Shown: positions 3,801 through 59,950 of the stretch, piece after piece
Layout: each line of letters starts with the position of its first letter
Numbering within the stretch: the first letter of the stretch is position 1
From: a virus
Length of the DNA stretch: 64,000 nt
Strand: one strand, 5' to 3'
Virus record (IMG/VR): IMGVR_UViG_3300027747_002198
Coordinates: 32,001-96,000 of that record
Program-made: the position numbers and the translations under genes
Notes under the pieces: model-generated
What the model saw: only the letters and a program-made list of their open reading frames with translations
Databases searched by the model: none
What the model was told of the DNA's origin: nothing

Positions 3801-5544
3801 TTTACTTCAATCTGGACTTAATACTGCTAATGCAAACATAGCTTATATTCTTGGTGTTGACTTAACTCAGAATACTTGGATTACCAATACTGATGGTAAA
3901 ATGCAATCTGCTTACAATCAAGCAAACGTGGTTGCTGGAGGATTGATTACTGCTAATGCTAATACAGTTTATATTAAAGCTGGGTTAGATTCAGCCAATG
4001 CTAATATTGCTTTGTTGCAAGCAGGATTAGGTACCAGTAATGCCAACATTGCATATATTCTTGGTATTGATGCAACTCAAAATTCTTGGATTATATCTGG
4101 AAACGCAAATTCAGCTCTAGCGTTTTCTTATATCAATTCAGCGAATGCTAACATTTCTATTTTGTTTGGCATTGAAACAACTCAGAATACTTGGATTACT
4201 AATACTGATGGTAAGATGCAGTCTGCCTATAATCAGGCTAATGCGACCGCCGGTGGTTTAATAACTGCTAATGCTAATATTGTATCAACAGACGGTAAGA
4301 TGCAGTCGGCTTATAACCAAGCCAACGTAACTGCTGGTGGTTTAATTACCGCTAACGCTAATAGTTTCTATATTCAGTCTGGATTAAATTCAGCAAATGC
4401 CAACATAGCTTTGTTACAAGCAGGACTTATAACTGCTAATGCTAATATTGTATCAACAGATGGTAAAATGCAATCAGCTTATAACCAAGCCAATGTTACC
4501 GCTGGTGGACTTATAACGGCTAATGCTAATACAGTTTATATTCAGTCTGGATTAAATTCAGCCAATGCCAATATATCATATCTTTTTGGTGTAAATTTAA
4601 CACAAAATACTTGGATTACCAATACTGATGGTTTGACACAATCGGCATATGCTCAAGCAAATGCTATTAGTTCTTATGCAAACACCACACTAAGTTATTT
4701 AAGTGGAGCTTTAATTACTACTAATGCTAATACAGTTTATATTCAATCTGGATTAAATTCAGCTAATGCCAATATTGTTTCATTACAAGCATTGGCGAAT
4801 ACAGATTATACAACTGTAACATCTCCGACAGGAACATTTGGTAGTGCAACATTAGTTCCTGTAGTTACTGTTGCTGCTAACGGTCGTATTACTAATATCA
4901 GCACAACAACAATCACCGGTGGTGGTGCCGGTGCTAACACAAATAGTTTTTCTACTATCGTTGTTTCTGGTCAACCAAGAGTAATAGCAAATAGTACTTC
5001 TTCACCATTAACATTTGTTGCTGGTACTGGAATGACTATTACTACTGTTGGCACCAGTAACACAATTACTTTTGTTTCAACGGGAGGATTTAGTGGCGGT
5101 ACAATTCCTAATCCTTTGAACATCACAAGTACATTAGTGAGTACAAATACCACCACGGGTGCTTTAGTAGTTACTGGTGGTGTTGGTATTGGTGGCGCAC
5201 TAAATGCTACATCAAAATCATTTAATATTCCACATCCAACAAAACCAGGAAAAGATTTACGTTATGGATCGTTAGAAGGTCCCGAGTTTGGTGTGTATGT
5301 TCGTGGAAAATTGGTTAATAATAACACAATTGAATTGCCTGAATATTGGACAAAATTGGTTCATAAAGATAGCATAACTGTTCAATTAACTCCTATTGGT
5401 AAATTTCAAAAACTTTCTGTTAAAGAAATTAAAGATAACAGGATTACTATTGGTAATGATGCCTTATTAAGTAATGATATTAATTGTTTTTATATTGTGT
5501 TTGCAGAAAGAGCAGATATAGATAAGCTTGAAGTGGAAAGTTAA
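838..5544 (+). CDS. Long tail fibre protein with modular coiled-coil repeats and a C-terminal chaperone-like domain
   Basis: 1568 aa; TGALTVAGGVG fibre motifs; 9 copies of D(G/A)KMQSAYNQAN; many ANAN repeats; C-terminal KSFNIPHP...LRYGSLEGPE domain typical of fibre ends. Confidence 0.75.
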   Translation: MTNRTRLVSGRVPTSNSANVSLSRYQFLDLSSAEPNLGTANNGDVLSYNTASPGGRQWIPQSYLGGLGLAQQAYNQANSANILAQSAYTQSNVAYNLASYASNTANNALPNTGPLITVNSTSRLYVSNTTTSTSNTTGALTVAGGVGISGNLFVGGTNITIGEGPGNATVNIASGGLTGNTIVVNIGTPTAAYQYPITYTNIFGGATVGGNLTVQGGYNQIGNGNYTTYVYLGNGYSLAGVIKTVEIGTNAFIGSNTNIAIGTSGGGNTTVKFGSNTITNFTNTAISTSNTTGALTVAGGIGVKGNVYADAVYSNNALVLTSEPIGISAASNTVYIKAGLDSANANIALLQASLGTSNANITYILGIDATQNSWIISANANSALAFSYINSANANIALLQSGLITANANGVATDGKMQSAYNQANVTAGGLITANANTVYTQAGLNTANGNISALQGGLIAANANSFYIQSGLNTANANISIIQGVDLTQNTWITNTDGKMQSAYNQANITAGGLITANANTVYIKAGLDSANANIGILFGIETTQNTNITYTDAKMQSAYNQANVTAGGLITANANTVYTQAGLNTANGNISALQGGLIAANANSAYILAGLISANANTAIIQGVDLTQNTWITNTDGKMQSAYNQANVTAGGLITANANTVYTQAGLNSANARITIIEGVDATQNTNISNKVNLTGSLNQTISGNVTITQDLVVSGNLVLTGNISSQNVQQLAVADPLILLGLGNYVSDTKDIGFAGHYNDGTNAHAGLIRDSGTKEFYLFKGYTPEVDSNNNIDITDASFSKANLNASYFKGNLIVTTAVVNGIDIYTYSTSAWTQANVTAGGLITANGNISALQGGLISANANSFYIQSGLNSANANIALLQTGLITANANGVATDGKMQSAYNQANVVAGGLITANANTVYIKAGLDSANANIALLQAGLGTSNANIAYILGIDATQNSWIISGNANSALAFSYINSANANIALLQSGLNTANANIAYILGVDLTQNTWITNTDGKMQSAYNQANVVAGGLITANANTVYIKAGLDSANANIALLQAGLGTSNANIAYILGIDATQNSWIISGNANSALAFSYINSANANISILFGIETTQNTWITNTDGKMQSAYNQANATAGGLITANANIVSTDGKMQSAYNQANVTAGGLITANANSFYIQSGLNSANANIALLQAGLITANANIVSTDGKMQSAYNQANVTAGGLITANANTVYIQSGLNSANANISYLFGVNLTQNTWITNTDGLTQSAYAQANAISSYANTTLSYLSGALITTNANTVYIQSGLNSANANIVSLQALANTDYTTVTSPTGTFGSATLVPVVTVAANGRITNISTTTITGGGAGANTNSFSTIVVSGQPRVIANSTSSPLTFVAGTGMTITTVGTSNTITFVSTGGFSGGTIPNPLNITSTLVSTNTTTGALVVTGGVGIGGALNATSKSFNIPHPTKPGKDLRYGSLEGPEFGVYVRGKLVNNNTIELPEYWTKLVHKDSITVQLTPIGKFQKLSVKEIKDNRITIGNDALLSNDINCFYIVFAERADIDKLEVES
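3661..4133 (+). repeat. Perfect 116-nt direct repeat in the fibre gene (3661-3776 and 4018-4133; 357-nt, in-frame period)
   Basis: Direct comparison of the two stretches. Confidence 0.85.
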
Positions 5545-48945: not shown

Positions 48946-49878
48946 ATGAATCATATGCTATGGGTCGAAAAATATCGACCAGCCAAAGTGGAAGATTGCA
49001 TCTTACCGGATGCAATCAAATCCACATTTCAAGAGTATGTCAATAGAAAAGAAATACCGAATTTATTATTATCTGGTACTGCCGGCGTTGGCAAAACTAC
49101 AATCGCAAAAGCTCTCTGTGAGGAAGTTGGTTGCGACTATATTGTTATCAATGGTTCTGATGAGTCTGGTATTGATGTTCTTCGTAATAAAATCAAAAAC
49201 TACGCTTCAGCGGTTTCTCTCATGGGCGGCCGCAAGGTCATCATCATAGATGAAGCAGATTATCTAAATCCTAATTCGACACAACCAGCATTGCGTGGTG
49301 CAATTGAGGAGTTTTCTGGTAACTGTTCTTTCATCTTCACTTGTAACTTCAAAAATCGTATCATCGATCCAATCCATTCTCGGTGTTCTGTCATTGACTT
49401 TAAAATCAATGGTAGTAAACCAAAGATGGCTGCACAATTTTTTAAACGTGTGGAATGGATACTTGAACAAGAGAAAATAACCTATGATAAATCTGTCGTT
49501 GCCGCAGTCATTACGAAACACTTTCCGGACAATCGCCGTGTTCTTAATGAACTTCAGCGATATTCTGTTTCAGGTACAATTGATAAAGGTATACTTTCTA
49601 ATGTTGCTGATATACAACTTGATGATTTATTTAAAGCCTTAAAATCAAAAGATTTTGCATCTACTCGTAAATGGGTAACCTCTAATCTCGATAACGATCC
49701 TGTTAAAATCTATCGTAAACTTTATGATGGTTTGTATGATGTATTGACACCAAATTCTGTACCACAATTGGTTCTTATTTTGGCCAAATATCAATATCAA
49801 GCTGCTTTTGTGGCAGACCATGAAATTAATATGGTTGCTTGTTTAACTGAAATTATGGTAGACTGCGAGTTTAAGTGA
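48946..49878 (+). CDS. gp44: Clamp loader large subunit gp44
   Basis: LWVEKYRP, GTAGVGKTT, IIDEAD, HSRC. Confidence 0.95.
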   Translation: MNHMLWVEKYRPAKVEDCILPDAIKSTFQEYVNRKEIPNLLLSGTAGVGKTTIAKALCEEVGCDYIVINGSDESGIDVLRNKIKNYASAVSLMGGRKVIIIDEADYLNPNSTQPALRGAIEEFSGNCSFIFTCNFKNRIIDPIHSRCSVIDFKINGSKPKMAAQFFKRVEWILEQEKITYDKSVVAAVITKHFPDNRRVLNELQRYSVSGTIDKGILSNVADIQLDDLFKALKSKDFASTRKWVTSNLDNDPVKIYRKLYDGLYDVLTPNSVPQLVLILAKYQYQAAFVADHEINMVACLTEIMVDCEFK

Positions 49879-51833: not shown

Positions 51834-52435
51834 TGATACCAAGAAAAATAAACAATTTTCTCGATAAAGAAAATTTAGAATTACATTTTTTAAAAGATAT
51901 TGTTGATAATGATAGGCGTCTGCGTTTTGGTGGTTCTCTTAGTGATGATGCTATTAAAACATATTTAAAATCTTCTTTTGTGGATTTTGGTATTAACAAT
52001 ATGTGGTTCATTATTGATGTGGAATCACCAGAAACTTTTGGTCGTAAAGTTGTAGCTACTTGCCATGTGAATTATGATTACCGAACAAATACAGCTGAAT
52101 TAGGATTAACTGTTAGTACCGATTATCGTAACCAAAAAATTGGCCAAGAACTGTATAATCGGGGAGTTACATGGGCTCGAATGAAAGGAGCTGAAATTAT
52201 CTTCATGCATTGTTTATCCGAAAATACTACAATGCAACACATTGCTCGTAAGAATGGTATGTCAGTAGTTACGATTGATCCTACAGAAAAACAATCTTCA
52301 ATTAAGGTTGCTAAGAATCCAATTACTGCCGGATATGAAGATACTATCTATGAACAGATGGCTGTTTTTGATATGGTTGTAAGAAACCAAAAATGGTTTT
52401 TTAAGAGTTTTATGAAAGCATTTGGTGTAAAATAA
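51827..52435 (+). CDS. GNAT-family acetyltransferase
   Basis: AELGLTVSTDYRNQKIG, CLSEN..MQHIARK.GM. Confidence 0.8.
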   Translation: MVMIPRKINNFLDKENLELHFLKDIVDNDRRLRFGGSLSDDAIKTYLKSSFVDFGINNMWFIIDVESPETFGRKVVATCHVNYDYRTNTAELGLTVSTDYRNQKIGQELYNRGVTWARMKGAEIIFMHCLSENTTMQHIARKNGMSVVTIDPTEKQSSIKVAKNPITAGYEDTIYEQMAVFDMVVRNQKWFFKSFMKAFGVK

Positions 52436-53002
52436 ATGTTTATAAAATTAAAAAACAAATTTATCGTTGATGGAAATAAATTCAATACAGGTAATGAAAT
52501 AGTTAATTATGGTTATAATGTTGATGGCCAATTTAAAGGAATTTCATATTTTAAAGTTGAGGGAAATATCTTTCAGGAAGTTTTAAAAGTTGTTCCGGAA
52601 AGGTATAGAAAAAATTTTGCAATTTCATATATGAAAATTAACGATTTGGTTCCTGCACACACAGATAATAATATATTAACTTCTATTAATTTTTATATTA
52701 AGCCTGGAAATTGTTTGACTCAATTTTATGAACTTAAATATAAAAATATAATTAAAAAAAAACATCCAAGTACAATTAAAAATTATATTGCCGGTGATGG
52801 ATTAACTTTTGATGAAAAAGATTTAAATCCAACGAAAAGTTTTATTGCTGAAGAAAATGACGTGTGGTTATTGGATGTTACAAAACCACATGCAGTTAAA
52901 CCTTTAGGAGAAAATACGGAAAGAATTGCAATTACAGTAGCTTCATTAATTTATGATTATAATTTGGTATGTAAAATGTTAAAAGAAACCGGTAATTTAT
53001 AA
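52436..53002 (+). CDS. Hypothetical protein, possible 2OG-Fe(II)/cupin fold
   Basis: PAHTD...PHAV....R motif; very AT-rich. Confidence 0.5.
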   Translation: MFIKLKNKFIVDGNKFNTGNEIVNYGYNVDGQFKGISYFKVEGNIFQEVLKVVPERYRKNFAISYMKINDLVPAHTDNNILTSINFYIKPGNCLTQFYELKYKNIIKKKHPSTIKNYIAGDGLTFDEKDLNPTKSFIAEENDVWLLDVTKPHAVKPLGENTERIAITVASLIYDYNLVCKMLKETGNL

Positions 53003-53628
53003 TGGAAAGTTTTAGAACTTTTACCATGTACGGAACATCAGAATCAAACACTTCAATTCAAGTTATGGTCGATGGTGTTATTTGTAAAAATGGAGTAGTT
53101 GAGGGTAATAACTTATTTTCTTTTCAGAATAATGTTAAAACCCACGGCAAAGTAGAAGTCAAAATACAGGTAAATAGTGGTAGTATAACACTTGGAAAAA
53201 CCATGGTAACATATCCTACATTATATGCAAAAAATGCATTTGCAAAATATAACAAAGGAACGATAACTTTTCCACAACCTTTTCAATCAAAATATGTATT
53301 TAATTCTGGTATATTAACTAAATTTGATCCGAATACAATTACCATAAAAGACCATTTTCAATTTGACCATGTAACATTTAATGGTCCTAATAATTTTTTA
53401 TTGTTATCAGAGAATGATTTGGAACCAAATTTAAATTTAGATAATTTTTATTTTTATAATAGTGATGATAGTAAAAATTTAAAAATTTTACCAATCTATA
53501 ATTATAAAAATGTTTATGTAAGTTGGTCATCAAAACAAGATAATTTAAAGTGTTTAGATATATTATTAACTGAAATATATGGAACATTTGGGCCGGTAGC
53601 TCAGTTGGTTAGAGCAGAGGACTCATAA
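53002..53628 (+). CDS. Hypothetical protein overlapping the 5' half of a tRNA
   Basis: 208 aa, AT-rich; stop codon in the tRNA anticodon loop. Confidence 0.45.
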   Translation: MESFRTFTMYGTSESNTSIQVMVDGVICKNGVVEGNNLFSFQNNVKTHGKVEVKIQVNSGSITLGKTMVTYPTLYAKNAFAKYNKGTITFPQPFQSKYVFNSGILTKFDPNTITIKDHFQFDHVTFNGPNNFLLLSENDLEPNLNLDNFYFYNSDDSKNLKILPIYNYKNVYVSWSSKQDNLKCLDILLTEIYGTFGPVAQLVRAEDS

Positions 53629-53666
53629 TCCTTTGGTCGAAGGTTCAAATCCTTCTCGGCCCACCA
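53590..53666 (+). tRNA. tRNA with CAT anticodon, Ile2 (lysidine)-like; Met-elongator not excluded
   Basis: Cloverleaf GGGCCGG/TCGGCCC-A-CCA, loop CTCATAA, T loop TTCAAAT. Confidence 0.85.
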
Positions 53667-53690
53667 TAAATAATACAAAAAAGGAAAAAG

Positions 53691-54053
53691 ATGGAACATT
53701 GGGGAAAACACCTAATTATCGATGCCAAAGGCTGCGATATACAAAGAGCAAATGATCCAGAATATATCAAACATTTTACCAAAGAATTGGTAAGATTGAT
53801 TGAGATGGTTCCTTTTGGTGAACCACAAGTTGTCCATTTTGCGGATGGTGGCGACAAATCTGGATGGACTATGATACAGTTGATTGAAACATCAAACGTC
53901 ATAGGGCACTTCCTAGACCATAATGGAGACCTTTACCTTGATGTATTCAGTTGTAAAGATTTTTCGGAGCATACGGTTATAGGCGCTTTAAAGATGTTCT
54001 TTTCACCAGGTGAAATTAAACATCAAGTCATTTGGAGAGATGCTCGTAACTAA
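53691..54053 (+). CDS. speD: S-adenosylmethionine decarboxylase proenzyme-like
   Basis: GKHLIIDAKGC, LIETSNV.GH, LYLDVFSCKDF; CATAAATA at 53665. Confidence 0.75.
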   Translation: MEHWGKHLIIDAKGCDIQRANDPEYIKHFTKELVRLIEMVPFGEPQVVHFADGGDKSGWTMIQLIETSNVIGHFLDHNGDLYLDVFSCKDFSEHTVIGALKMFFSPGEIKHQVIWRDARN

Positions 54054-54122
54054 ATAAGTATGTGTGAGTAGTAACGGATTAATGCAATTATTGGGTCAAC
54101 TTATTAGAAGGAGAGACCTAAA

Positions 54123-54635
54123 ATGCAGTTAAGTATAGTCGGTTGTCCCGATAAAAAACATTTCCGGCCGTATGTTAAAAGAGCGGCGCTATTTTACGCA
54201 CAAGAACTTATAAAACCTAAGATGTTGGAAAACATCTTTTTAAGAATTAAATTCAATAGTAAAATGAATGTATACGGATATGCTGAGATTTTAGAGTATA
54301 ATGAAAGCCGTAAAGCAAGAGAATTTCAAATAGAATTAAATCCAAACATTGGTGCGGCAGAAATATTAAAGTGTTTGGCACATGAAATGACCCATATTAA
54401 ACAATACGCTTACAATGAAACCAACGAAACCTTAACTCGTTGGAAAGGTATAAGAGTTGATTCTGATGTGGTAGATTATTGGGTTCAACCATGGGAAATA
54501 GAAGCATTTGGTAGAGAAGTCGGTCTATTTGCCAAGTTTGCAATTAAAGAAAAACTTTGGGATGTATTTTATGGAGTACAAAATCCTGATGGAGCAATAG
54601 AAATTGAAGAATTAGGTTGGAAAGAGCCTATATAA
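54123..54635 (+). CDS. HEXXH zinc metallopeptidase-like protein
   Basis: LAHEMTHIKQ and Y..QPWEIEAF motifs; ACTAAATA at 54049. Confidence 0.7.
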   Translation: MQLSIVGCPDKKHFRPYVKRAALFYAQELIKPKMLENIFLRIKFNSKMNVYGYAEILEYNESRKAREFQIELNPNIGAAEILKCLAHEMTHIKQYAYNETNETLTRWKGIRVDSDVVDYWVQPWEIEAFGREVGLFAKFAIKEKLWDVFYGVQNPDGAIEIEELGWKEPI

Positions 54636-54642
54636 AAGAACA

Positions 54643-54717
54643 ATGAAAAATTTACACATAACAACTTCCAATTATTATAATACATCAGGAACATGGTGTA
54701 GTGGGGTTCGTTTGTAA
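54643..54717 (+). CDS. Putative attenuator leader peptide MKNLHITTSNYYNTSGTWCSGVRL (24 aa)
   Basis: ATG 7 nt after the upstream stop; its 3' end forms the 5' strand of an antiterminator. Confidence 0.6.
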   Translation: MKNLHITTSNYYNTSGTWCSGVRL

Positions 54718-54772
54718 ATTTTTAAGTAACACAGATTTATACGAACCCAAGTCTAAACAACTTGGGTTTTTT
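54704..54772 (+). promoter_or_regulatory. Transcription attenuator: antiterminator (54704-54721/54734-54748) versus terminator (54744-54772)
   Basis: GGGTTCGT/ACGAACCC competes with AACCCAAGT-CTAAACA-ACTTGGGTT-TTTT. Confidence 0.7.
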
Positions 54773-54781
54773 GTTTTCCGT

Positions 54782-54855
54782 GGCCTGCTGGTGTAATGGT
54801 AGCACAAGGCACTCCAAACGCCTTGGTCGGGGTTCGATTCCCTGGTGGGACGCCA
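54782..54855 (+). tRNA. trnW: tRNA-Trp (CCA), non-canonical pairs
   Basis: Loop CTCCAAA, G73 discriminator, encoded CCA, T loop TTCGATT. Confidence 0.85.
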
Positions 54856-54858
54856 ATG

Positions 54859-54934
54859 ATTGTAAAGTTAAAAAACTTTATTGTAAAGTTATTCGTAGTT
54901 GATTGTAAAGTTAAGGTGTTGTGTGGAAACAACA
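54859..54934 (+). repeat. Three phased ATTGTAAAGTTA repeats plus TGTTG-N8-CAACA palindrome
   Basis: Copies at 54859, 54880, 54902; palindrome 54917-54934. Confidence 0.8.
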
Positions 54935-54949
54935 GTATCAAAATGTTAC

Positions 54950-54978
54950 TTGACAGAAAATAGTTTGTCTAGTATAAT
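54950..54978 (+). promoter_or_regulatory. Consensus sigma70 promoter for tRNA-Tyr onward
   Basis: TTGACA-17-TATAAT. Confidence 0.85.
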
Positions 54979-54990
54979 AGTAGTTCAATT

Positions 54991-55074
54991 GGGGTAGAAG
55001 AATCAACGGTGATTCAGCGGCCTGTAAAGCCGCCGCCTCTGGCATGCTTGGTTCGATCCCAAGATACCCCACCA
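54991..55074 (+). tRNA. trnY: tRNA-Tyr (GTA)
   Basis: GCGGC-CTGTAAA-GCCGC arm, long variable arm, A-CCA end. Confidence 0.88.
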
Positions 55075-55161
55075 GATTGTTGTATCAAGTGTAATGATTG
55101 GGTTGAGGACTTCTCGGCCGACAACAACGGAGGTGGCCGTCCCGTTTACATAACGAGCCCC
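55075..55161 (+). ncRNA. Candidate structured RNA (multi-stem, possible pseudoknots)
   Basis: GC-rich non-coding segment with several complementary blocks. Confidence 0.45.
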
Positions 55162-55181
55162 ATATTTTTAAGGAGAGTATT

Positions 55182-55400
55182 ATGAAAAAGAAAAATACTC
55201 CCCAACCTCGGAACTATCTTGTCAAATTGGCATTGTTTCGAAAAGCAGGGAGCCATCGTAAGAGTAACAAAGCAGTAAGGCGTAGTGAGAAGTCAAAAAG
55301 AAGTTATTATAGTGAAGTATACTGCCACTTAATACATATATGTGGAGTCCGGCCGGCGCACCTTCCACGGGTCAGCAATAGGTTCGAAACTATTGTGTAG
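55182..55400 (+). CDS. Small basic protein with arfA-like gene architecture
   Basis: AAGGAG SD; K/R-rich aa 1-40; 3' half inside a 24-bp RNA stem. Confidence 0.55.
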   Translation: MKKKNTPQPRNYLVKLALFRKAGSHRKSNKAVRRSEKSKRSYYSEVYCHLIHICGVRPAHLPRVSNRFETIV

Positions 55401-55420
55401 TGTGCTTCACTATAATAATT
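55302..55420 (+). other. 24-bp RNA stem (4 G-U pairs), putative RNase III substrate, with two internal hairpins
   Basis: 55302-55325 pairs with 55397-55420. Confidence 0.7.
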
Positions 55421-55433
55421 TTGGTCCGCCAAT

Positions 55434-55508
55434 GCCCTTTTAGCACAGCGGTAGTGCAGTGGTTTTGTAAACCAAAGGTCGGGAGTTCAAATCTCTCAGA
55501 GGGCACCA
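55434..55508 (+). tRNA. trnT: tRNA-Thr (TGT)
   Basis: GCCCTTT/AGAGGGC-A-CCA, loop TTTGTAA. Confidence 0.9.
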
Positions 55509-55527
55509 AGTATACCGCACAATGTTC

Positions 55528-55556
55528 TTGACAATGTGTATAAGTAATGTTATAGT
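55528..55556 (+). promoter_or_regulatory. Sigma70-type promoter
   Basis: TTGACA-17-TATAGT with TGn. Confidence 0.75.
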
Positions 55557-55565
55557 ATTGAATAT

Positions 55566-55632
55566 GCGGTGTGTAATAGTACGATGTGAGATACCCTCTT
55601 ATATTATCTGAGCAAAGCAGACCACCGCTCCA
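55566..55632 (+). ncRNA. 67-nt tRNA-like RNA with Gly identity elements (loop triplet ACC), lacking canonical D and T loops
   Basis: GCGGTG/CACCGC-T-CCA acceptor and three hairpin arms. Confidence 0.6.
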
Positions 55633-55652
55633 AATTTTATTAGGGATTTATA

Positions 55653-55814
55653 ATGGCAACTAAAGATAAAACAAAAAAATCTTCAATGACAACCAAAACA
55701 GGTAAGCCTCGTTTAGGTCCTTTAAATGTTGAACAGTTAACTAAATTATTAGATGGTGCTCGTAAGAAACACAAACCAAAAATTTTGAAAGCAATTGCTC
55801 GAAAAGCAGCATGA
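55653..55814 (+). CDS. Unlisted 53-aa basic protein (MATKDKTKK...IARKAA)
   Basis: AGGGA SD, open frame. Confidence 0.55.
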   Translation: MATKDKTKKSSMTTKTGKPRLGPLNVEQLTKLLDGARKKHKPKILKAIARKAA

Positions 55815-55912
55815 GTTCAAATACAAATCCTTCTTGGGGCAAAACACTAACCAAGAAAGAATTGTTGGATATGCTTGACAGAATTTATGCCAAGCAAAAA
55901 AAAGAAAAGTAA
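55811..55912 (+). CDS. Unlisted 33-aa ORF MSSNTNPSWGKTLTKKELLDMLDRIYAKQKKEK
   Basis: ATGA overlap. Confidence 0.4.
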   Translation: MSSNTNPSWGKTLTKKELLDMLDRIYAKQKKEK

Positions 55913-55916
55913 CCTT

Positions 55917-55990
55917 GCGGGATTAGTTTAATGGTAAAACTACAGATTTCCAATCTGTTGTCATCGGTTCGATTCCGTTATCCCGCTCCA
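55917..55990 (+). tRNA. trnG: tRNA-Gly (TCC)
   Basis: GCGGGAT/ATCCCGC-T-CCA, loop TTTCCAA. Confidence 0.92.
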
Positions 55991-55991
55991 T

Positions 55992-56067
55992 TCCTCGATA
56001 GCTCAGTCGGTAGAGCAGCAGACTGTTAATCTGTTGGTCCGTGGTTCAAGTCCACGTTGGGGAGCCA
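55992..56067 (+). tRNA. trnN: tRNA-Asn (GTT)
   Basis: TCCTCGA/TTGGGGA-G-CCA, loop CTGTTAA. Confidence 0.92.
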
Positions 56068-56269
56068 TTGTTGAGAATGTGTGAAAAAGAGTAAGCAATC
56101 CTAACTGTTAAGGAATATCATCACCCTTGAGGTGTCCATCCGAGATCCGGAGATGACTGCTGGCTGAAGCAGTATGAAAGGTGTAATCAAGGGGAGGTCA
56201 GAGCATAGGACGGGTTAAAGACCGCACCGGCGAGAGCCTTTTAAACATAAAACAGTATTCTCAACAATG
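56066..56269 (+). ncRNA. Candidate ~200-nt structured ncRNA
   Basis: 14-bp closing stem CATTGTTGAGAATG/TATTCTCAACAATG and several internal helices. Confidence 0.55.
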
Positions 56270-56299
56270 ACTATATACTTTATTACATAAGGAATTGAT

Positions 56300-56554
56300 A
56301 TGATAATCGTAGATGAAATGACACCAACAAAAGATAACATCATTGTGGATCGTATTGCTGGTGAAAAAGAAACAGAATCAGGAATTATTTTAAAATCATC
56401 CGATGGACCAGACCGTGCAAAAGTGATTGCTATTGGTCCTAAAGTTGATGAAGTTGAAGTTGGTGATGAAGTATTACTTAACTGGAATGGTGCAGTGAAA
56501 ATTGCTAATGAACGTTATGTAATCAAAATTGAACACGTTGTTTTAATTTATTAA
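56300..56554 (+). CDS. groES: GroES/Cpn10-like co-chaperonin
   Basis: P..D.IIV, ETESGIIL mobile loop, AKVIAIGP, VEVGDEVL. Confidence 0.85.
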   Translation: MIIVDEMTPTKDNIIVDRIAGEKETESGIILKSSDGPDRAKVIAIGPKVDEVEVGDEVLLNWNGAVKIANERYVIKIEHVVLIY

Positions 56555-56559
56555 TCTTG

Positions 56560-56634
56560 CGCGGAGTAGTTCAGAGGTAGAACGCTGGACTCATAATCCA
56601 GAGGCCGTTGGTTCGATTCCATCCTCCGCAACCA
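56560..56634 (+). tRNA. Initiator-type tRNA-fMet (CAT)
   Basis: C1-A72 mismatch, CGCGGAG/CTCCGCA-A-CCA, loop CTCATAA. Confidence 0.85.
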
Positions 56635-56647
56635 ACAAGGAGATAAT

Positions 56648-56791
56648 ATGAGTGTGGTTAAATCAAATACTAAAAAAGTTCCTAATGTTCCTAATATTAA
56701 AAATATAGGACCAAAACCAAACATCAAACCTAAAGGTCCTGTTGCGGCCAAATCTTCAGCACCAATGCGTAAAAGTGGGAGAGGACGATGA
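56648..56791 (+). CDS. Unlisted 47-aa K/P-rich basic peptide ending RKSGRGR
   Basis: AAGGAG SD immediately after tRNA-fMet. Confidence 0.55.
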   Translation: MSVVKSNTKKVPNVPNIKNIGPKPNIKPKGPVAAKSSAPMRKSGRGR

Positions 56792-56934
56792 TACAATCAA
56801 AAGGTGTTGATGAGTCAGATCCAGTAAAGAAACAAGATTCTGAAAATGAAGATGCCGAATTCAAACGAATTGAAGATGAGCAATATCGCCAAAAACAATT
56901 AGAAAAAGTTAGAAACTTGACACGTTGGCCATAA
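56788..56934 (+). CDS. Unlisted 48-aa ORF (MIQSKGVDE...LTRWP)
   Basis: ATGA overlap, GGAGAGG SD. Confidence 0.5.
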   Translation: MIQSKGVDESDPVKKQDSENEDAEFKRIEDEQYRQKQLEKVRNLTRWP

Positions 56935-57007
56935 TGGCATAAGGCGTATAATACGCCATCAGCATTAGATACACATTATAATCTACCATGTAATCTATGG
57001 GTGTCAT
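56909..57007 (-). CDS. Unlisted 32-aa antisense ORF MTPIDYMVDYNVYLMLMAYYTPYAIMANVSSF
   Basis: Minus-strand GAAAGG SD and ATAAATA late-promoter motif (57041-57035). Confidence 0.4.
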   Translation of the reverse strand: MTPIDYMVDYNVYLMLMAYYTPYAIMANVSSF

Positions 57008-57099
57008 AATTGAACCTTTCTTTTGGTATATAAGTATTTATCTCTTTACAACCTTTTCTGGTTGTTATATAATAATGAAATATTTTGAAAGGAAATAAC

Positions 57100-57414
57100 A
57101 TGGCAGATATTAAATTATTTAAACTATTCACCAATGAAGAAATCTTGGCTGAAATTGAATCTGAATCTGAAACCGAATATGTATTATCTAATACTGTAGG
57201 CGTTTCAGTTGTTCGTCAAAAAGATGGAACACCAGGTGTTGGTTTTATTCCATTCCCTCTACACGCAGAACAAAAAACAAATTCCACATTTGTATTGAAT
57301 AAGAAAAGTGTATCTTATTCTTATGTTCCTGCTCAAGATTTTATTGATAATTATAATTCTATTTTTGGATCAGGCATCGTCCTTCCACCAGCAAAAACTT
57401 TAATCAAAGGTTAA
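57100..57414 (+). CDS. Conserved T4-like protein upstream of gp43 (Sm-like fold suspected; start likely ATG 57100)
   Basis: IKLFKLFTNEEILAEI, YNSIFGSGIVLP; AAGGA SD. Confidence 0.6.
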   Translation: MADIKLFKLFTNEEILAEIESESETEYVLSNTVGVSVVRQKDGTPGVGFIPFPLHAEQKTNSTFVLNKKSVSYSYVPAQDFIDNYNSIFGSGIVLPPAKTLIKG

Positions 57415-57415
57415 A

Positions 57416-59950
57416 TTGAGTAACTTCTACACTAATGTACAATGCTTTGGTAGTAATATTCTCTATCGAGGCATTAAAGATGGTAAAAGAATAAAAGCAA
57501 GGATCGAGTATTCTCCATCTTTGTTTTTGCCGTCTAAAAGAATCACCAACTTCACCTCACTCGAAGGTGATTATCTCGACCAAAAAATCTTTGGTACCAT
57601 CCGTGAAGCGAGAGATTACATCAAGCAATTTGAAGGTGTTTCTGGTGGTGTGAAGATTTATGGTCAAACCCGTTTTGAGTATGCGTATATTGCAGACCAA
57701 CACACAGGTATGGTTGATTACGACCAAGATAAAGTTCTTATTGCTGTAGTCGATATTGAGGTCGGTTCTGAAAATGGATTCCCTGATCCATACAAAGCAA
57801 ACGAACCAATCACAGCTATTTGTATCAAATATGTCAATGGTCCAACTTATGTGTTTGCTTGTGGTGATTATGTTAAACAAGGTGATGAGAATTATGTGAA
57901 ATGTAAAGACGAATATTCTATTTGCAAACAATTTATGGCTTTGTGGACAAATAAATGTCCTGATATTCTAACTGGTTGGAATACTAAGTTTTTTGATGAG
58001 CCTTATTTGATTAATCGTTTCCGTAAAATTCTTGGTGAAGATGAAACCAAGAAACTTTCTCCATGGAATTATATTGGCGAGCGTAAAACAACAATCAATG
58101 GACGCCAGTTAATTGCCTATAACCTGATGGGTGTTGAATCACTCGATTATATTGAATTGTATAAGTGGTATGCTCCTGGCGGAAAGTCACAAGAATCCTA
58201 TCGTTTAGATGCCATTGCTCAAGTCGAATTGGGTGAAGGCAAAATCTCTTATGATGAATATGATAACTTGCACTCATTGTATCGATTAAACTTCCAAAAA
58301 TTTATTGAGTATAATATCAAAGACGTTGAACTCATTATTAAACTTGAAGAAAAGTTAAAGTTACTCGAATTGGGAATAACTTTGGCCTATGATACCAAAA
58401 CAAACTTTGAAGATATCTTTGCTCAAACTCGTATGTGGGATTCTCTAACATATTCTTATCTGTTTGAAAAGAATATTATTGTTCCTCCTAGAATTACCAA
58501 AGAAAAAGATGGTATGTTTGAAGGTGCTTATGTTAAAGTACCACAAGTTGGTTTACATAATTGGGTTGCATCGTTTGACCTGAATAGTTTGTATCCGCAT
58601 TTGATGATGCAATACAATATTTCTCCTGAAACTTTGATTGAGCCTGAAAATTATTCAGATGAAATGCGTGAGATTTTATCTCAAGGTGTTTCTGTTGATA
58701 AGATGCTGTACAAAAATGTGGATACTTCCAAACTTAAAGGTGCAACTCTAACCCCTAATGGACAATTCTTCCGTACCGATATTCAAGGTTTCTTGCCCAA
58801 AATGATGGAAGAAATGTATACTGATAGAAAGAAGTTTAAGAAGTTAATGTTGCAGGCAAAACAGGAATATGAAAATGAAACTGATGAATCTAAAAAATAT
58901 GAAATTGAAAAGCGAATTGCTAAGTACAACAATATTCAGTTGGCCAAAAAAGTGTCCCTTAATAGTGCTTATGGTGCTTTGGGCTCTCAGTACTTCCGTT
59001 TTTATGATTTGCGTATGGCACTTGGTGTTACTACTGCTGGCCAACTTTCCATCAGGTGGATTGAAAATAAACTTAACGATTGGATGAACAATCTATTAAA
59101 AAGTGAGAAAGATTATGTTATTGCGTCCGATACTGATTCGATTTACCTCAACCTTGGTCCATTGGTTAATAGCATTGTTAAATCAAAGATTGAAACTCCT
59201 AAAGTTATCTCCATCATGGACCGTATTTGTGAGGATAAGATTCAACCTTATATTGACAAGAGTTATCAGGAGTTGGCAGAGTATGTGTGTGCATATTCTC
59301 AAAAGATGGAAATGAAACGTGAGGGTTTGTCCGATAAAGGAATCTGGACCGCCAAGAAGCGATATATTCTAAATGTTTATAACAATGAAGGTGTTCAATA
59401 TAACGAACCACAACTCAAGGTGATGGGTTTGGAGATGATTAAATCGTCTACACCATCGGTTGTTCGTGATAAGATGAAATCGCTTATTAAGATTCTTGTA
59501 TCTGGCACAGAAGATGATGTACAATCATTTATTGCAGAGTTTAGAGAACAATTTAAACATCTACCTGTAGAGGAGATATCTTTTCCTCGTGGTCTGAATG
59601 GGCTAAATACCTATTCACATGCGGTGACCTTATACACTAAAGGTACACCAATCCATGTAAAAGGTGCAATTCTATATAATCATAAATTGAAACAAATGGA
59701 ACTCACCAAAAAGTACCCACTCATTCAAGAAGGCGAGAAAGTTAAGTTTACTTATCTAAAAATGCCAAACACATTTAAAGATAGTGTTGTTTCATTTCCT
59801 AGTAGATTACCTGTCGAATTTGATTTACAAAAGTTTATTGATTATGATACACAATTCGAAAAAACATTCTTGGAACCGATCAAAGTAATTCTTGATTGTA
59901 TGGGATGGAAAACAGAAAAATGTAGTTCAATAGAGGACTTTTTCTCATGA
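57416..59950 (+). CDS. gp43: Family B DNA polymerase gp43
   Basis: DIEV exonuclease, SFDLNSLYP, KVSLNSAYG, SDTDS, C-terminal clamp-binding IEDFF. Confidence 0.97.
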   Translation: MSNFYTNVQCFGSNILYRGIKDGKRIKARIEYSPSLFLPSKRITNFTSLEGDYLDQKIFGTIREARDYIKQFEGVSGGVKIYGQTRFEYAYIADQHTGMVDYDQDKVLIAVVDIEVGSENGFPDPYKANEPITAICIKYVNGPTYVFACGDYVKQGDENYVKCKDEYSICKQFMALWTNKCPDILTGWNTKFFDEPYLINRFRKILGEDETKKLSPWNYIGERKTTINGRQLIAYNLMGVESLDYIELYKWYAPGGKSQESYRLDAIAQVELGEGKISYDEYDNLHSLYRLNFQKFIEYNIKDVELIIKLEEKLKLLELGITLAYDTKTNFEDIFAQTRMWDSLTYSYLFEKNIIVPPRITKEKDGMFEGAYVKVPQVGLHNWVASFDLNSLYPHLMMQYNISPETLIEPENYSDEMREILSQGVSVDKMLYKNVDTSKLKGATLTPNGQFFRTDIQGFLPKMMEEMYTDRKKFKKLMLQAKQEYENETDESKKYEIEKRIAKYNNIQLAKKVSLNSAYGALGSQYFRFYDLRMALGVTTAGQLSIRWIENKLNDWMNNLLKSEKDYVIASDTDSIYLNLGPLVNSIVKSKIETPKVISIMDRICEDKIQPYIDKSYQELAEYVCAYSQKMEMKREGLSDKGIWTAKKRYILNVYNNEGVQYNEPQLKVMGLEMIKSSTPSVVRDKMKSLIKILVSGTEDDVQSFIAEFREQFKHLPVEEISFPRGLNGLNTYSHAVTLYTKGTPIHVKGAILYNHKLKQMELTKKYPLIQEGEKVKFTYLKMPNTFKDSVVSFPSRLPVEFDLQKFIDYDTQFEKTFLEPIKVILDCMGWKTEKCSSIEDFFS

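What the first reader, a model, noticed from the sequence alone, without database searches (positions are those of the whole stretch)
54643..54855. Leader-peptide attenuator gating a phage tRNA array: candidate sensor of tRNA depletion
Seen: an unannotated 24-codon ORF (54643-54717, MKNLHITTSNYYNTSGTWCSGVRL) whose last codons and stop form the 5' strand of a ~16-bp antiterminator (GGGTTCGT-tt-GTAAATTT 54704-54721 with AGATTTAT-ACGAACCC 54734-54748). This shares AACCC with a terminator (AACCCAAGT-CTAAACA-ACTTGGGTT-TTTT, 54744-54772) ending 9 nt before tRNA-Trp. Codons 6-18 are ATA ACA ACT TCC AAT TAT TAT AAT ACA TCA GGA ACA TGG: 11 of 13 are for Ile(AUA), Thr, Asn, Tyr, Gly or Trp, the amino acids of the tRNAs in this island (assuming the 53590 CAT tRNA is Ile2). 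TGG ends 7 nt before the antiterminator. Established: this layout matches trp/his/thr-type ribosome-mediated attenuators, which control amino-acid biosynthesis operons. Inference: complete translation melts the antiterminator and stops transcription, while stalling (starvation, or tRNA cleavage by host anticodon nucleases) lets transcription from the upstream late promoters (53665, 54049) read into tRNA-Trp and beyond. I know of no described phage attenuator of this kind. Caveats: weak SD (likely coupled to the upstream stop); a separate promoter at 54950 also drives tRNA-Tyr onward; the Ile2-like tRNA lies upstream.
Basis: partly seen in the sequence, partly recalled or inferred. Interest (0 to 1): 0.93.

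Follow-up and report, generated by a model that had tools for sequence, protein, structure and literature searches.

The report
Leader-peptide attenuator gating phage tRNA genes
An uncultured freshwater T4-like phage puts a tiny translated "test gene" and a stop/go RNA switch directly in front of its tRNA genes, and in its relatives the amino acids of the test gene tend to match the tRNAs that follow, so the phage probably makes these tRNAs when ribosomes run short of them, a control I found described for amino-acid genes but not for tRNA genes.

Summary
The 24-codon ORF (54643-54717), a 16-bp antiterminator (54704-54721 with 54733-54748), an overlapping intrinsic terminator (54743-54769 plus T-run) and tRNA-Trp 9 nt later are all present.

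- I found 24 distinct variants in relatives, all before tRNA arrays: 20 of type A and 4 of type B. There is also one divergent variant, L068.
- All 24 keep the frame despite length changes, and the ORF ends inside the antiterminator 5' arm.
- Between close variants, amino-acid changes far outnumber silent ones (29 to 3). The ORF appears to be translated, but its peptide is not conserved.
- The terminator shows compensatory changes. L068 changes five antiterminator pairs on both sides.
- The first tRNA starts 6-10 nt after the T-run in most type-A variants that keep downstream sequence, so it can only be made by read-through.
- Leader composition follows each phage's tRNA set (permutation p=5e-5). 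A cruder test on independent pairs gives only p=0.055.
- Leaders prefer ACA, GGA and ATA, the codons matching the phage anticodons.

There are no expression data, the window's own promoter is unclear, and there are exceptions (Glu, Arg, L263, L053). This scan has noted the same kind of element in many other phages, and I found no publication on it. I rate it a new variant of leader-peptide attenuation.

The parts
54631..54636 (+). -10-like hexamer TATAAA, overlapping the stop codon of the upstream 170-aa gene. It is TATAAT in most relatives, usually 6 nt before the ATG. No -35 is present in this window.
   Evidence: Alignment A1. Six relatives carry TTGACA-17-TATAAT-6 nt-ATG.
54643..54717 (+). 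Leader ORF of 24 codons, MKNLHITTSNYYNTSGTWCSGVRL, with stop TAA at 54715-54717 inside the antiterminator 5' arm.
   Evidence: The frame is kept in 24 variants of 22-26 or 33 codons; the other two frames carry 42 and 31 stops. Close pairs differ by 29 amino-acid changes and 3 silent ones.
54647..54669 (+). Region 1 (codons 2-9). It can pair with region 2 and so act as an anti-antiterminator.
   Evidence: Minimum-energy folds. The 1:2 duplex is better than codon-shuffled leaders in all 20 type-A variants, z -0.1 to -4.4. The window's register is not conserved.
54681..54700 (+). Small hairpin UACAUCA/UGGUGUA holding the Trp codon in its 3' arm. Possibly a pause or timing hairpin (inference).
   Evidence: 86.7% of cells are paired across 20 variants, with C:G to U:G changes.
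54704..54721 (+). Region 2: antiterminator 5' arm, GGGTTCGT-tt-GTAAATTT.
   Evidence: Fold at -15.3 kcal/mol, z=-4.2. Lower stem invariant; upper stem 94% paired.
54733..54748 (+). Region 3: antiterminator 3' arm, AGATTTAT-ACGAACCC. Its last 6 nt are also the start of the terminator 5' arm.
   Evidence: L068 changes five pairs on both sides relative to type B.
54743..54772 (+). Intrinsic terminator: 10-bp stem, 7-nt loop, T-run.
   Evidence: Scan hit. Fold at -12.6 kcal/mol. 98.5% paired, with two pairs switching A:U to U:A in 7 and 8 variants.
54782..54855 (+). tRNA-Trp (CCA), the gated gene. There is no room for a promoter between the T-run and the tRNA.
   Evidence: The first tRNA lies 6-10 nt after the T-run in most type-A variants with downstream sequence.

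Best explanation
This is a ribosome-mediated (leader-peptide) transcription attenuator that controls read-through from the leader into the phage's own tRNA genes.

Shown:
- A short ORF whose frame and end point are conserved runs into the 5' arm of a hairpin (region 2:3).
- The 3' arm of that hairpin shares GAACCC with an intrinsic terminator (region 3:4).
- The terminator lies 9 nt before tRNA-Trp.

Inferred:
- A ribosome that reads to the stop unwinds and covers region 2, so the terminator forms and transcription stops.
- With no ribosome, region 1 pairs with region 2 and the terminator again forms.
- A ribosome held up on the early or middle leader codons frees region 2 to pair with region 3. 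RNA polymerase then reads into the tRNA gene or genes.

The leader is written in the amino acids, and largely in the exact codons (ACA, GGA, ATA, AAT, TAT, TGG), served by the tRNAs downstream. The signal sensed is therefore most likely a shortage of those charged tRNAs. That would give a negative feedback: tRNA genes are on when decoding of the phage's codons is slow, and off when supply suffices.
For: Anatomy and folding
- Anatomy confirmed.
- Antiterminator -15.3 against terminator -12.6 kcal/mol. The antiterminator wins when its 5' arm is free, and the terminator wins when the arm is masked.

Conservation
- Six homologs were found through the neighbouring protein alone, and all keep the ORF, stop position and switch.
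- Pattern scans raised this to 20 type-A and 4 type-B leaders, plus the divergent L068. All lie before tRNA arrays.
- ORF lengths differ by whole codons. The ORF frame is open in 24 of 24 variants, against about 17% for shuffled leaders.
- Close pairs show 3 silent and 29 amino-acid changes, spread evenly over codon positions. The ORF is translated but its peptide is not conserved.
- The terminator has two compensatory pairs. L068's arms GGGTTTTGTG/CACAAAACCC against type B's GGGTTCGTGT/ACACGAACCC give five compensatory pairs.
- The upstream neighbour varies while the tRNAs always follow.

Leader matches array
- Shuffling arrays among 14 leaders: amino-acid level 120 against 99.4±4.7 (p=5e-5); codon level 103 against 90.3±3.7 (p=6.5e-4).
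- When a tRNA is present, its amino acid is in the leader: Ala 3/3, Pro 4/4, Ser 4/4, His 2/2, Cys 1/1, Tyr 9/9, Asn 10/10, Thr 12/12.
- L216's variable region uses only T, S, N, Y, G, E, W, and its near-contiguous block is Ser, Trp, Glu, Tyr, Thr, Gly, Asn.
- Its sister L307 uses only T, N, L, W, and its tRNAs are Leu, Trp, Thr, Asn (plus Met).
- Type-B leaders hold 19 of 20 amino acids in 33 residues (P about 0.005), before arrays of 8-20 tRNAs (three of the four have 18-20).

Codon choice in leaders against the phage's long ORFs
- ACA is 53 of 65 Thr codons, against 39%.
- GGA+GGG are 10 of 11 Gly codons, against 26%.
- ATA is 18 of 24 Ile codons, against 19%.

Same switch in bacteria
- The same GGGGTTCGT/ACGAACCCC switch follows Leu-rich leader ORFs in front of leuA (2-isopropylmalate synthase) in Planctomycetia.
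Against: - There are no transcript, terminator-efficiency or ribosome data.
- The window's leader has no Shine-Dalgarno sequence and no -35 element, so how it is transcribed and translated here is unclear.
- The permutation tests ignore relatedness. A crude test on independent pairs gives 8 concordant against 2 discordant changes, p=0.055.
- Exceptions: tRNA-Glu is in 9 arrays but E is in only 2 leaders, and tRNA-Arg is in 3 arrays and never in the leader.
- Ser, His and Pro often occur in leaders without a matching tRNA.
- L307's Leu codons are CTA and TTA, but its tRNA-Leu anticodon is CAG.
- L263 has the Trp codon but no tRNA-Trp within 3.8 kb.
- L053 keeps the terminator and tRNA-Trp without any leader.
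- The antiterminator lower stem is invariant in type A, partly because the scans required it.
- The 1:2 pairing is not conserved in one register and is absent in type B.
- With a ribosome on codons 11-18, the equilibrium model favours the terminator if region 1 can re-pair behind the ribosome.
- In this window a consensus promoter at 54950 drives the later tRNAs, so only tRNA-Trp is gated.
Confidence: 0.7

Rival explanations
1. The switch is a general sensor of translation capacity. It responds to overall ribosome availability or translation speed (for example host shut-off, or coupling of ribosome and polymerase) rather than to particular tRNAs. On this view the leader composition is incidental or inherited.
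For: The architecture only requires that a ribosome reach, or fail to reach, the stop. Leader and array mismatch for Glu, Arg, L263 and the L307 Leu codons. The phylogeny-controlled test is only p=0.055.
Against: Leaders avoid the phage's commonest residues and its preferred GGT Gly codon, and use ACA, GGA and ATA far above proteome usage. The sister leaders L216 and L307 each match their own arrays exactly. Type-B leaders before the larger arrays (three of four have 18-20 tRNAs) carry 19 of 20 amino acids.
Confidence: 0.13
2. The ORF encodes a nascent regulatory (arrest) peptide that senses a small molecule, as TnaC senses free tryptophan. The invariant Trp would then be part of the sensor rather than a codon that tests tRNA supply.
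For: Trp is the only invariant residue before the stem in all 24 leaders. In type A it always lies 6 codons before the stop. The N-terminus MKNLHI resembles TnaC's MNILHI (my own recollection, not tested). The first 20 codons of type B are nearly invariant, and L068 keeps KPLSMQ..SEYR..NW through silent changes.
Against: The distance from Trp to the stop differs between types (6 and 13 codons). The residues after Trp vary (C/Q/R/F, then S/G/A/R/E/V/D). The type-A middle region evolves mostly by amino-acid changes. A sensor of this kind does not explain why leaders follow the tRNA arrays.
Confidence: 0.07
3. The ORF is an ordinary small gene or a chance ORF, followed by a constitutive terminator that merely insulates upstream transcription. 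On this view the tRNAs are made by leaky read-through and the long hairpin is an RNA stability element.
For: L053, L006 and L007 keep the terminator without the leader. L022 and L024 place a promoter over the terminator's 5' arm, showing that the hairpin can serve as a plain insulator. Sigma-70-like hits lie inside the ORF at 54651-54681.
Against: The frame is conserved across whole-codon indels without conservation of the peptide. The stop always lies in or just past the antiterminator 5' arm. The overlap of antiterminator and terminator persists through five compensatory changes in L068. Leaders follow arrays. The internal TATAAT is lost in close relatives.
Confidence: 0.1

Closest known systems
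Leader-peptide attenuators of enterobacterial amino-acid operons (trpL, hisL, leuL, pheL, thrL, and the multivalent ilvGMEDA/ilvBN leaders). Textbook knowledge, recalled from memory.
   Same: A short ORF, alternative antiterminator and terminator hairpins that share nucleotides, a stop codon placed so that a terminating ribosome blocks the antiterminator, a possible 1:2 pairing, and sensor codons for several amino acids as in thrL and the ilv leaders.
   Different: The element controls tRNA genes rather than biosynthetic enzymes, and it is phage-borne. The leader has no runs of one codon; instead it is a mosaic of single codons for up to 7-19 amino acids that mirrors the tRNA set. The ORF runs 3 codons into the stem. 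It is probably leaderless in relatives. Rfam gave no match other than tRNAs.
Leu-rich leader attenuators upstream of leuA in Planctomycetia. Found here; I know of no description, and Rfam has no match.
   Same: The same switch core: GGGGTTCGT, about 25-35 nt, ACGAACCC(C), overlapping a terminator and T-run, immediately after a leader ORF.
   Different: The leaders are M..NLLPLLLLALLERRP-type with Leu runs, and the stop lies just before the stem rather than inside it. The DNA is GC-rich and bacterial, and the gene that follows is leuA. Whether the shared 9-mer reflects descent (capture from a host) or chance is open. I found these elements by searching for that very pattern.
pheM leader of the E. 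coli pheST operon (from memory).
   Same: Leader-peptide attenuation applied to a component of the translation apparatus, giving feedback through charged tRNA.
   Different: It controls an aminoacyl-tRNA synthetase rather than tRNA genes, senses a single amino acid, and is chromosomal.
T-box riboswitches (from memory).
   Same: They sense tRNA status and choose between an antiterminator and a terminator.
   Different: T-boxes bind uncharged tRNA directly and need no translation. No T-box match was found here, and this element has a conserved ORF.
Leader-ORF plus terminator elements before tRNA blocks in other phages, noted earlier by this scan. One example is phiCbK gp083 with an annotated terminator.
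   Same: A short ORF rich in the amino acids of the following tRNAs, then a terminator, then a tRNA block.
   Different: The sequences and phage lineages are unrelated. The earlier entries are unchecked AI notes. For phiCbK I checked only the composition (S, L, P, K-rich 45-aa ORF before Pro, Pro, Lys, Lys, Leu x3, Ser x2) and the annotated terminator, not an antiterminator.

Membership tests
Leader-peptide (ribosome-mediated) transcription attenuator | A short translated ORF upstream of the regulated gene | tested here: met
   ORF at 54643-54717. The frame is open in 24 of 24 variants despite lengths of 22-26 and 33 codons, while the other frames are closed. The substitution pattern fits an ORF that is translated but whose peptide is not conserved. 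Translation itself was not observed.
Leader-peptide (ribosome-mediated) transcription attenuator | An intrinsic terminator between the leader and the regulated gene | tested here: met
   Scan hit at 54743-54769 plus T-run. Fold at -12.6 kcal/mol. 98.5% paired, with two compensatory pairs. tRNA-Trp starts 9 nt after the T-run.
Leader-peptide (ribosome-mediated) transcription attenuator | An antiterminator hairpin mutually exclusive with the terminator | tested here: met
   The two share GAACCC (54743-54748). The antiterminator folds at -15.3 kcal/mol and wins when its 5' arm is free. Five compensatory pairs separate L068 from type B. The lower stem is invariant within type A.
Leader-peptide (ribosome-mediated) transcription attenuator | A stop codon placed so that a terminating ribosome masks the antiterminator 5' arm | tested here: met
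   GGG GTT CGT TTG TAA: the stop lies 3 nt past the 8-bp lower stem in all type-A variants and directly after the 10-bp stem in type B. Footprint modelling gives the terminator alone from codon 19 onward.
Leader-peptide (ribosome-mediated) transcription attenuator | Leader enriched in codons tied to the regulated function | tested here: met
   Window: 11 of 17 codons against a 22.5% background, p=2e-4. Family: permutation p=5e-5 at amino-acid level and 6.5e-4 at codon level. ACA, GGA and ATA are preferred. Independent pairs give only p=0.055.
Leader-peptide (ribosome-mediated) transcription attenuator | An anti-antiterminator (1:2) pairing that gives termination without translation | tested here: inconclusive
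   Present in the window's minimum-energy fold. The duplex beats shuffles in 20 of 20 type-A variants, but often weakly. The register is not conserved, and z is about 0 in type B.
Leader-peptide (ribosome-mediated) transcription attenuator | Read-through rises when ribosomes stall on the sensor codons | not testable with these tools
   This needs reporter, Term-seq or coupled in vitro assays.
Leader-peptide (ribosome-mediated) transcription attenuator | A way to start transcription and translation of the leader | tested here: inconclusive
   Six relatives have TTGACA-17-TATAAT-6 nt-ATG, which predicts a leaderless mRNA. The window has only TATAAA at 54631-54636, with no -35 and no Shine-Dalgarno sequence.
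Curated Rfam leader families (Trp_leader, His_leader, Leu_leader, Thr_leader, T-box and others) | A match to a covariance model | tested here: not met
   cmscan of 52000-58000 at E<=1 found only tRNAs and chance-level hits.
TnaC-type arrest peptide | Conserved sensor residues at fixed spacing from the stop | tested here: not met
   Trp is invariant, but its distance to the stop is 6 codons in type A and 13 in type B. The residues between vary.

The most novel reading that the evidence does not exclude
Phage tRNA arrays may be under homeostatic feedback. A leader whose codons mirror the array would measure, through ribosome speed, how well those codons are being decoded in the current host. It would switch the phage's tRNA genes on only when supply is short. 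That would include shortage caused by a mismatch between host and phage codon usage, or by host nucleases that cut tRNAs as an anti-phage defence. Leader and array would then co-evolve as a cassette. This family's switch may also have been captured from a bacterial leuA attenuator of the Planctomycetia type.
Probability: 0.45. Interest if true: 0.9.

Novelty: new variant of a known kind. Interest (0 to 1): 0.82.

Why it matters
Many large phages carry tRNA genes. Why they do, and how these genes are regulated, is still debated: codon-usage compensation, replacement of degraded host tRNAs, or escape from tRNA-cutting defences.

An attenuator whose leader spells out the amino acids of the tRNAs behind it would show that the phage measures decoding of those codons directly and makes tRNAs on demand. 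This turns a long-standing question into one that simple reporters can test. It extends a classic bacterial control principle to tRNA genes and to viruses. It also offers a compact, reprogrammable sensor of the supply of specific charged tRNAs.

Five library searches found no description of such control. Earlier notes of this scan report similar elements in many other phages, so the principle may be widespread.

Tried and rejected
- Rfam scan of 52000-58000: only tRNAs were found.
- A promoter inside the ORF (TACACA-17-TATAAT, 54653-54681) making a small RNA: rejected, because the TATAAT is lost in close relatives.
- Search of cultured phages by DNA and by the neighbouring protein: no relative with this element. 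Caulobacter phage Cr30 has the neighbouring gene but no tRNAs beside it.
- A scan anchored on the promoter and start (TATATAAWAGAACAATGAA) gave no new family members, only four unrelated hits.
- A scan for L068-like variants returned only L068's own contig.
- tRNA mimicry by the leader's 3' part (TGGTGTAGTGG + GGGGTTCG, resembling the D and T arms of tRNA-Trp): rejected as not conserved, because the two codons after Trp vary.
- My recollection that E. coli pheV has a leader-peptide attenuator: checked and not borne out. A promoter directly precedes pheV.
- Identity of the CAT-anticodon tRNAs (Met or Ile2) by similarity to E. coli: uninformative.
- One fold call failed on a length limit and was repeated.
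Full report
**1. What is in the window**

The window lies in a 161.8-kb uncultured virus genome with terminal repeats. It has 35% G+C and a T4-type DNA polymerase about 50% identical to those of cyanomyoviruses.

- ARAGORN finds seven tRNAs between 53590 and 56634.
- The ORF at 54643-54717 (MKNLHITTSNYYNTSGTWCSGVRL) is real.
- The terminator at 54743-54769 with its T-run is one of only two terminator-like sites in 6 kb. It ends 9 nt before tRNA-Trp.
- The proposed antiterminator folds as described at -15.3 kcal/mol (z=-4.2). The terminator folds at -12.6 kcal/mol.
- The only correction is that the 3' arm starts at 54733, not 54734.
- Rfam recognises nothing here except tRNAs.
- The element occurs once in the genome.

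**2. Folding logic**

- The free leader RNA folds best as a region 1:2 pairing plus the terminator (-31 to -32 kcal/mol).
- When region 2 is free but region 1 is not, the antiterminator wins over the terminator.
- I masked a ribosome footprint of 15 nt 5' and 9 nt 3' of the A-site codon.
  - A site on codons 1-10: the antiterminator is favoured.
  - Codons 11-13: the two are about equal.
  - Codons 14-18: the terminator is favoured, but only if region 1 can re-pair behind the ribosome.
  - Codon 19 to the stop: only the terminator can form.
- This is the logic of the trp leader. The calculation is at equilibrium and says nothing about kinetics.

**3. Relatives**

- The 170-aa gene upstream (54123-54635) retrieved 80 loci from IMG/VR, mostly with tRNA arrays downstream.
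- In L001/L002, L008, L009/L011, L013 and L040 the intergenic region is homologous. The ORF is kept in frame with whole-codon length changes and always ends ...W-x-x-G-V-R-L-stop.
- L004, L005 and L080 carry a different 33-codon ORF, MLFVTKPLSMQSEYRTPSNWSAIGFDHVFGVRV. It has its own promoter, runs in the same frame into GGGGTTCGTGT...ACACGAACCC plus a terminator, and precedes an array of 15 or more tRNAs.
- Pattern scans of IMG/VR and metagenomes raised the count to 20 distinct type-A and 4 type-B leaders.
- All true family members have the ORF. The ORF frame is open in 24 of 24 variants, while the other frames hold 42 and 31 stops. Shuffled leaders are open about 17% of the time.
- Among close pairs there are 3 silent and 29 amino-acid differences, spread evenly over codon positions. 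The frame matters and the peptide does not, which fits a leader peptide and argues against a functional micro-protein.

**4. Structure support**

- On the 20-sequence alignment A1, the terminator is 98.5% paired. Two of its pairs switch A:U to U:A in 7 and 8 sequences.
- The antiterminator upper stem is 94% paired, with wobble changes.
- The lower stem is invariant, partly because the scans required it.
- Independent support comes from L068, which was found through the protein. Its leader (MLVCLKPLSMQHGSEYRSNW...) is homologous to type B, with silent changes in KPLS.
- L068's arms are GGGTTTTGTG/CACAAAACCC instead of GGGTTCGTGT/ACACGAACCC. That is five pairs changed on both sides, and the overlap with the terminator is kept.
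- A 1:2 duplex better than codon-shuffled controls is seen in all 20 type-A leaders (z -0.1 to -4.4). It is not in one conserved register and is absent in type B. I treat it as likely in the window's clade only.

**5. Gating**

- In most type-A variants that keep downstream sequence, the first tRNA begins 6-10 nt after the T-run, which leaves no room for a promoter.
- The upstream neighbour varies while the tRNAs always follow.
- Six relatives have TTGACA-17-TATAAT followed 6 nt later by the ATG. This predicts an mRNA that starts at or next to the AUG.
- The window keeps only the -10-like TATAAA, which overlaps the upstream stop codon. How its leader is transcribed and translated remains open.
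- In this window a 12/12 consensus promoter at 54950 drives tRNA-Tyr onward, so only tRNA-Trp is gated. In L287, L212 and L216, six or seven tRNAs follow closely packed, most only 1-20 nt apart.

**6. Does the leader follow the tRNA set?**

- In the window, 11 of 17 codons from codon 2 to Trp are read by the array's tRNAs, against 22.5% of codons in the phage's long ORFs (p=2e-4).
- Across 14 type-A leaders with at least 1.2 kb downstream, each leader fits its own array better than shuffled arrays.

| Level | Observed | Shuffled | p |
|---|---|---|---|
| Amino acid | 120 | 99.4 ± 4.7 | 5e-5 |
| Codon | 103 | 90.3 ± 3.7 | 6.5e-4 |

- Whenever the array holds a tRNA for Ala, Pro, Ser, His, Cys, Tyr, Asn or Thr, that residue is in the leader: 3/3, 4/4, 4/4, 2/2, 1/1, 9/9, 10/10 and 12/12.
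- The sister leaders are the clearest case.
  - L216 has ...TTSNYGTSSNEW before Ser, Trp, Glu, Tyr, Thr, Gly, Asn.
  - L307 has ...TTNLNTLLNLW before Leu, Trp, Thr, Asn.
- Type-B leaders hold 19 of 20 amino acids in 33 residues (P about 0.005). L068 holds all 20 in 38. They precede arrays of 8-20 tRNAs; three of the four type-B arrays have 18-20.
- Codon choice points the same way.

| Codons in leaders | Count | Share in the phage's long ORFs |
|---|---|---|
| ACA among Thr | 53 of 65 | 39% |
| GGA+GGG among Gly | 10 of 11 | 26% |
| ATA among Ile | 18 of 24 | 19% |

- These codons match the anticodons UGU and UCC, and a CAU tRNA if that is Ile2. The Ile2 identity is an assumption I could not test.

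**7. Limits**

- The sequences are related, so the permutation p-values are too optimistic. A greedy set of seven independent pairs gives 8 concordant and 2 discordant changes (p=0.055).
- There are exceptions.
  - Glu: tRNA in 9 arrays, E in 2 leaders.
  - Arg: tRNA in 3 arrays, never in the leader.
  - Ser, His and Pro often occur in leaders without a matching tRNA.
  - L307's Leu codons CTA and TTA do not match the anticodon CAG.
  - L263 has no tRNA-Trp within 3.8 kb, only a weak tRNA-His-like gene (30.2 bits) behind the terminator.
  - L053 has the terminator and tRNA-Trp without a leader.
- No transcript or ribosome data could be obtained.

**8. Comparison with what is known**

- The design is that of classical leader-peptide attenuators, and closest to the multivalent thr and ilv leaders.
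- What is regulated (tRNA genes) and where (a phage) are new to me. They are also new to the held library: five searches found nothing.
- My recollection of an attenuator at E. coli pheV was wrong. A promoter directly precedes the gene.
- The pattern scans also returned a coherent bacterial family.
  - In Planctomycetia, Leu-rich leader ORFs (for example MIATNLLPLLLLALLERRP) end right at GGGGTTCGT...ACGAACCCC, followed by a terminator.
  - They sit 60-250 nt upstream of 2-isopropylmalate synthase.
  - They fold as 1:2 plus terminator and have no Rfam match.
- This shows the same switch core in a setting that looks like a textbook attenuator. It may hint at the origin of the phage element or at its host. 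But I found this family by searching for that core, so common descent is not established.
- Earlier notes of this scan describe the same kind of element in many other phages.
- I checked one cultured example only in part. In phiCbK, the 45-aa gp083 is rich in S, L, P and K. An annotated terminator follows it, and then Pro, Pro, Lys, Lys, Leu x3, Ser x2.

**9. Verdict**

- Most likely (about 0.7) this is a ribosome-mediated attenuator that lets transcription read into the phage's tRNA gene or genes when decoding of the leader is slow. The leader is tuned to the tRNAs it controls.
- The anatomy, the conservation and the association with the tRNA set are shown.
- The direction of control, the signal sensed and any role against tRNA-targeting host defences are inferred.
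- It is a new variant of a known mechanism and is of high interest.

Noticed in passing
L240:1350-1495 (- strand); also L246, L247, L250, L265, L282, L290, L300, L306 and L313-L347: An apparently undescribed family of leuA leader-peptide attenuators in Planctomycetia. Leu-rich leaders of 18-20 aa (for example MIATNLLPLLLLALLERRP) end at GGGGTTCGT...ACGAACCCC plus a terminator, 60-250 nt before 2-isopropylmalate synthase. There is no Rfam match.
   Followed up: partly
window 54859-54934: Three direct repeats of ATTGTAAAGTTA at about 21-22 bp spacing, between tRNA-Trp and the consensus promoter at 54950. They could be a protein-binding array.
   Followed up: no
L022:4990-5050 and L024:4990-5050: A TTGATA-17-TATAAT promoter sits directly on the 5' arm of a terminator 14 nt before tRNA-Trp. 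Transcripts starting there would lack part of the stem and escape termination, while upstream transcripts would stop. This is a different solution to the same gating problem.
   Followed up: no
L053:3500-3570: The terminator and tRNA-Trp are kept directly after the 170-aa gene, with no leader ORF or antiterminator. This is either a decayed copy or a tRNA made only by leaky read-through.
   Followed up: no
L263:351-419; L040:3655-3725: A tRNA-His-like gene (anticodon GTG) lies right after the terminator and is missed by ARAGORN. It scores 30.2 bits against the Rfam tRNA model in L263. The L040 copy falls below the Rfam tRNA threshold and looks degenerate.
   Followed up: partly
L006/L007 about 3580-3610; L061 about 3590-3620; L040 about 3845-3875: Promoters of the form TTGACATATTGT(G/A)TGGTT(C/T)GTGTATAAT carry GGTTCGTG in their spacer. 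This is the same motif as the antiterminator 5' arm, and type B reads GGGGTTCGTGTATAG. The meaning is unknown.
   Followed up: no
L307:3860-3937 (- strand): tRNA-Leu with anticodon CAG is the first gene behind a leader that has three CTA and one TTA Leu codons before the Trp codon. The amino acid matches but the codons do not.
   Followed up: partly
L357:2541-2770 (phiCbK 49540-49769): In the cultured Caulobacter phage phiCbK, the 45-aa gp083 (MFALSHNSLSTKAASPASLSLAPLATATKPSTKPTTSASHSTDHL) and an annotated rho-independent terminator precede a block of Pro, Pro, Lys, Lys, Leu x3, Ser x2 tRNAs. Two more annotated terminators sit before other tRNA blocks.
   Followed up: partly
L004 (IMGVR_UViG_3300002098_000029) compared with the window: Phages whose neighbouring 170-aa gene is 90% identical carry different cassettes at the same site. 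One has a type-A leader with about 6 tRNAs, the other a type-B leader with 15 or more. This suggests that leader and array are exchanged as a unit.
   Followed up: partly
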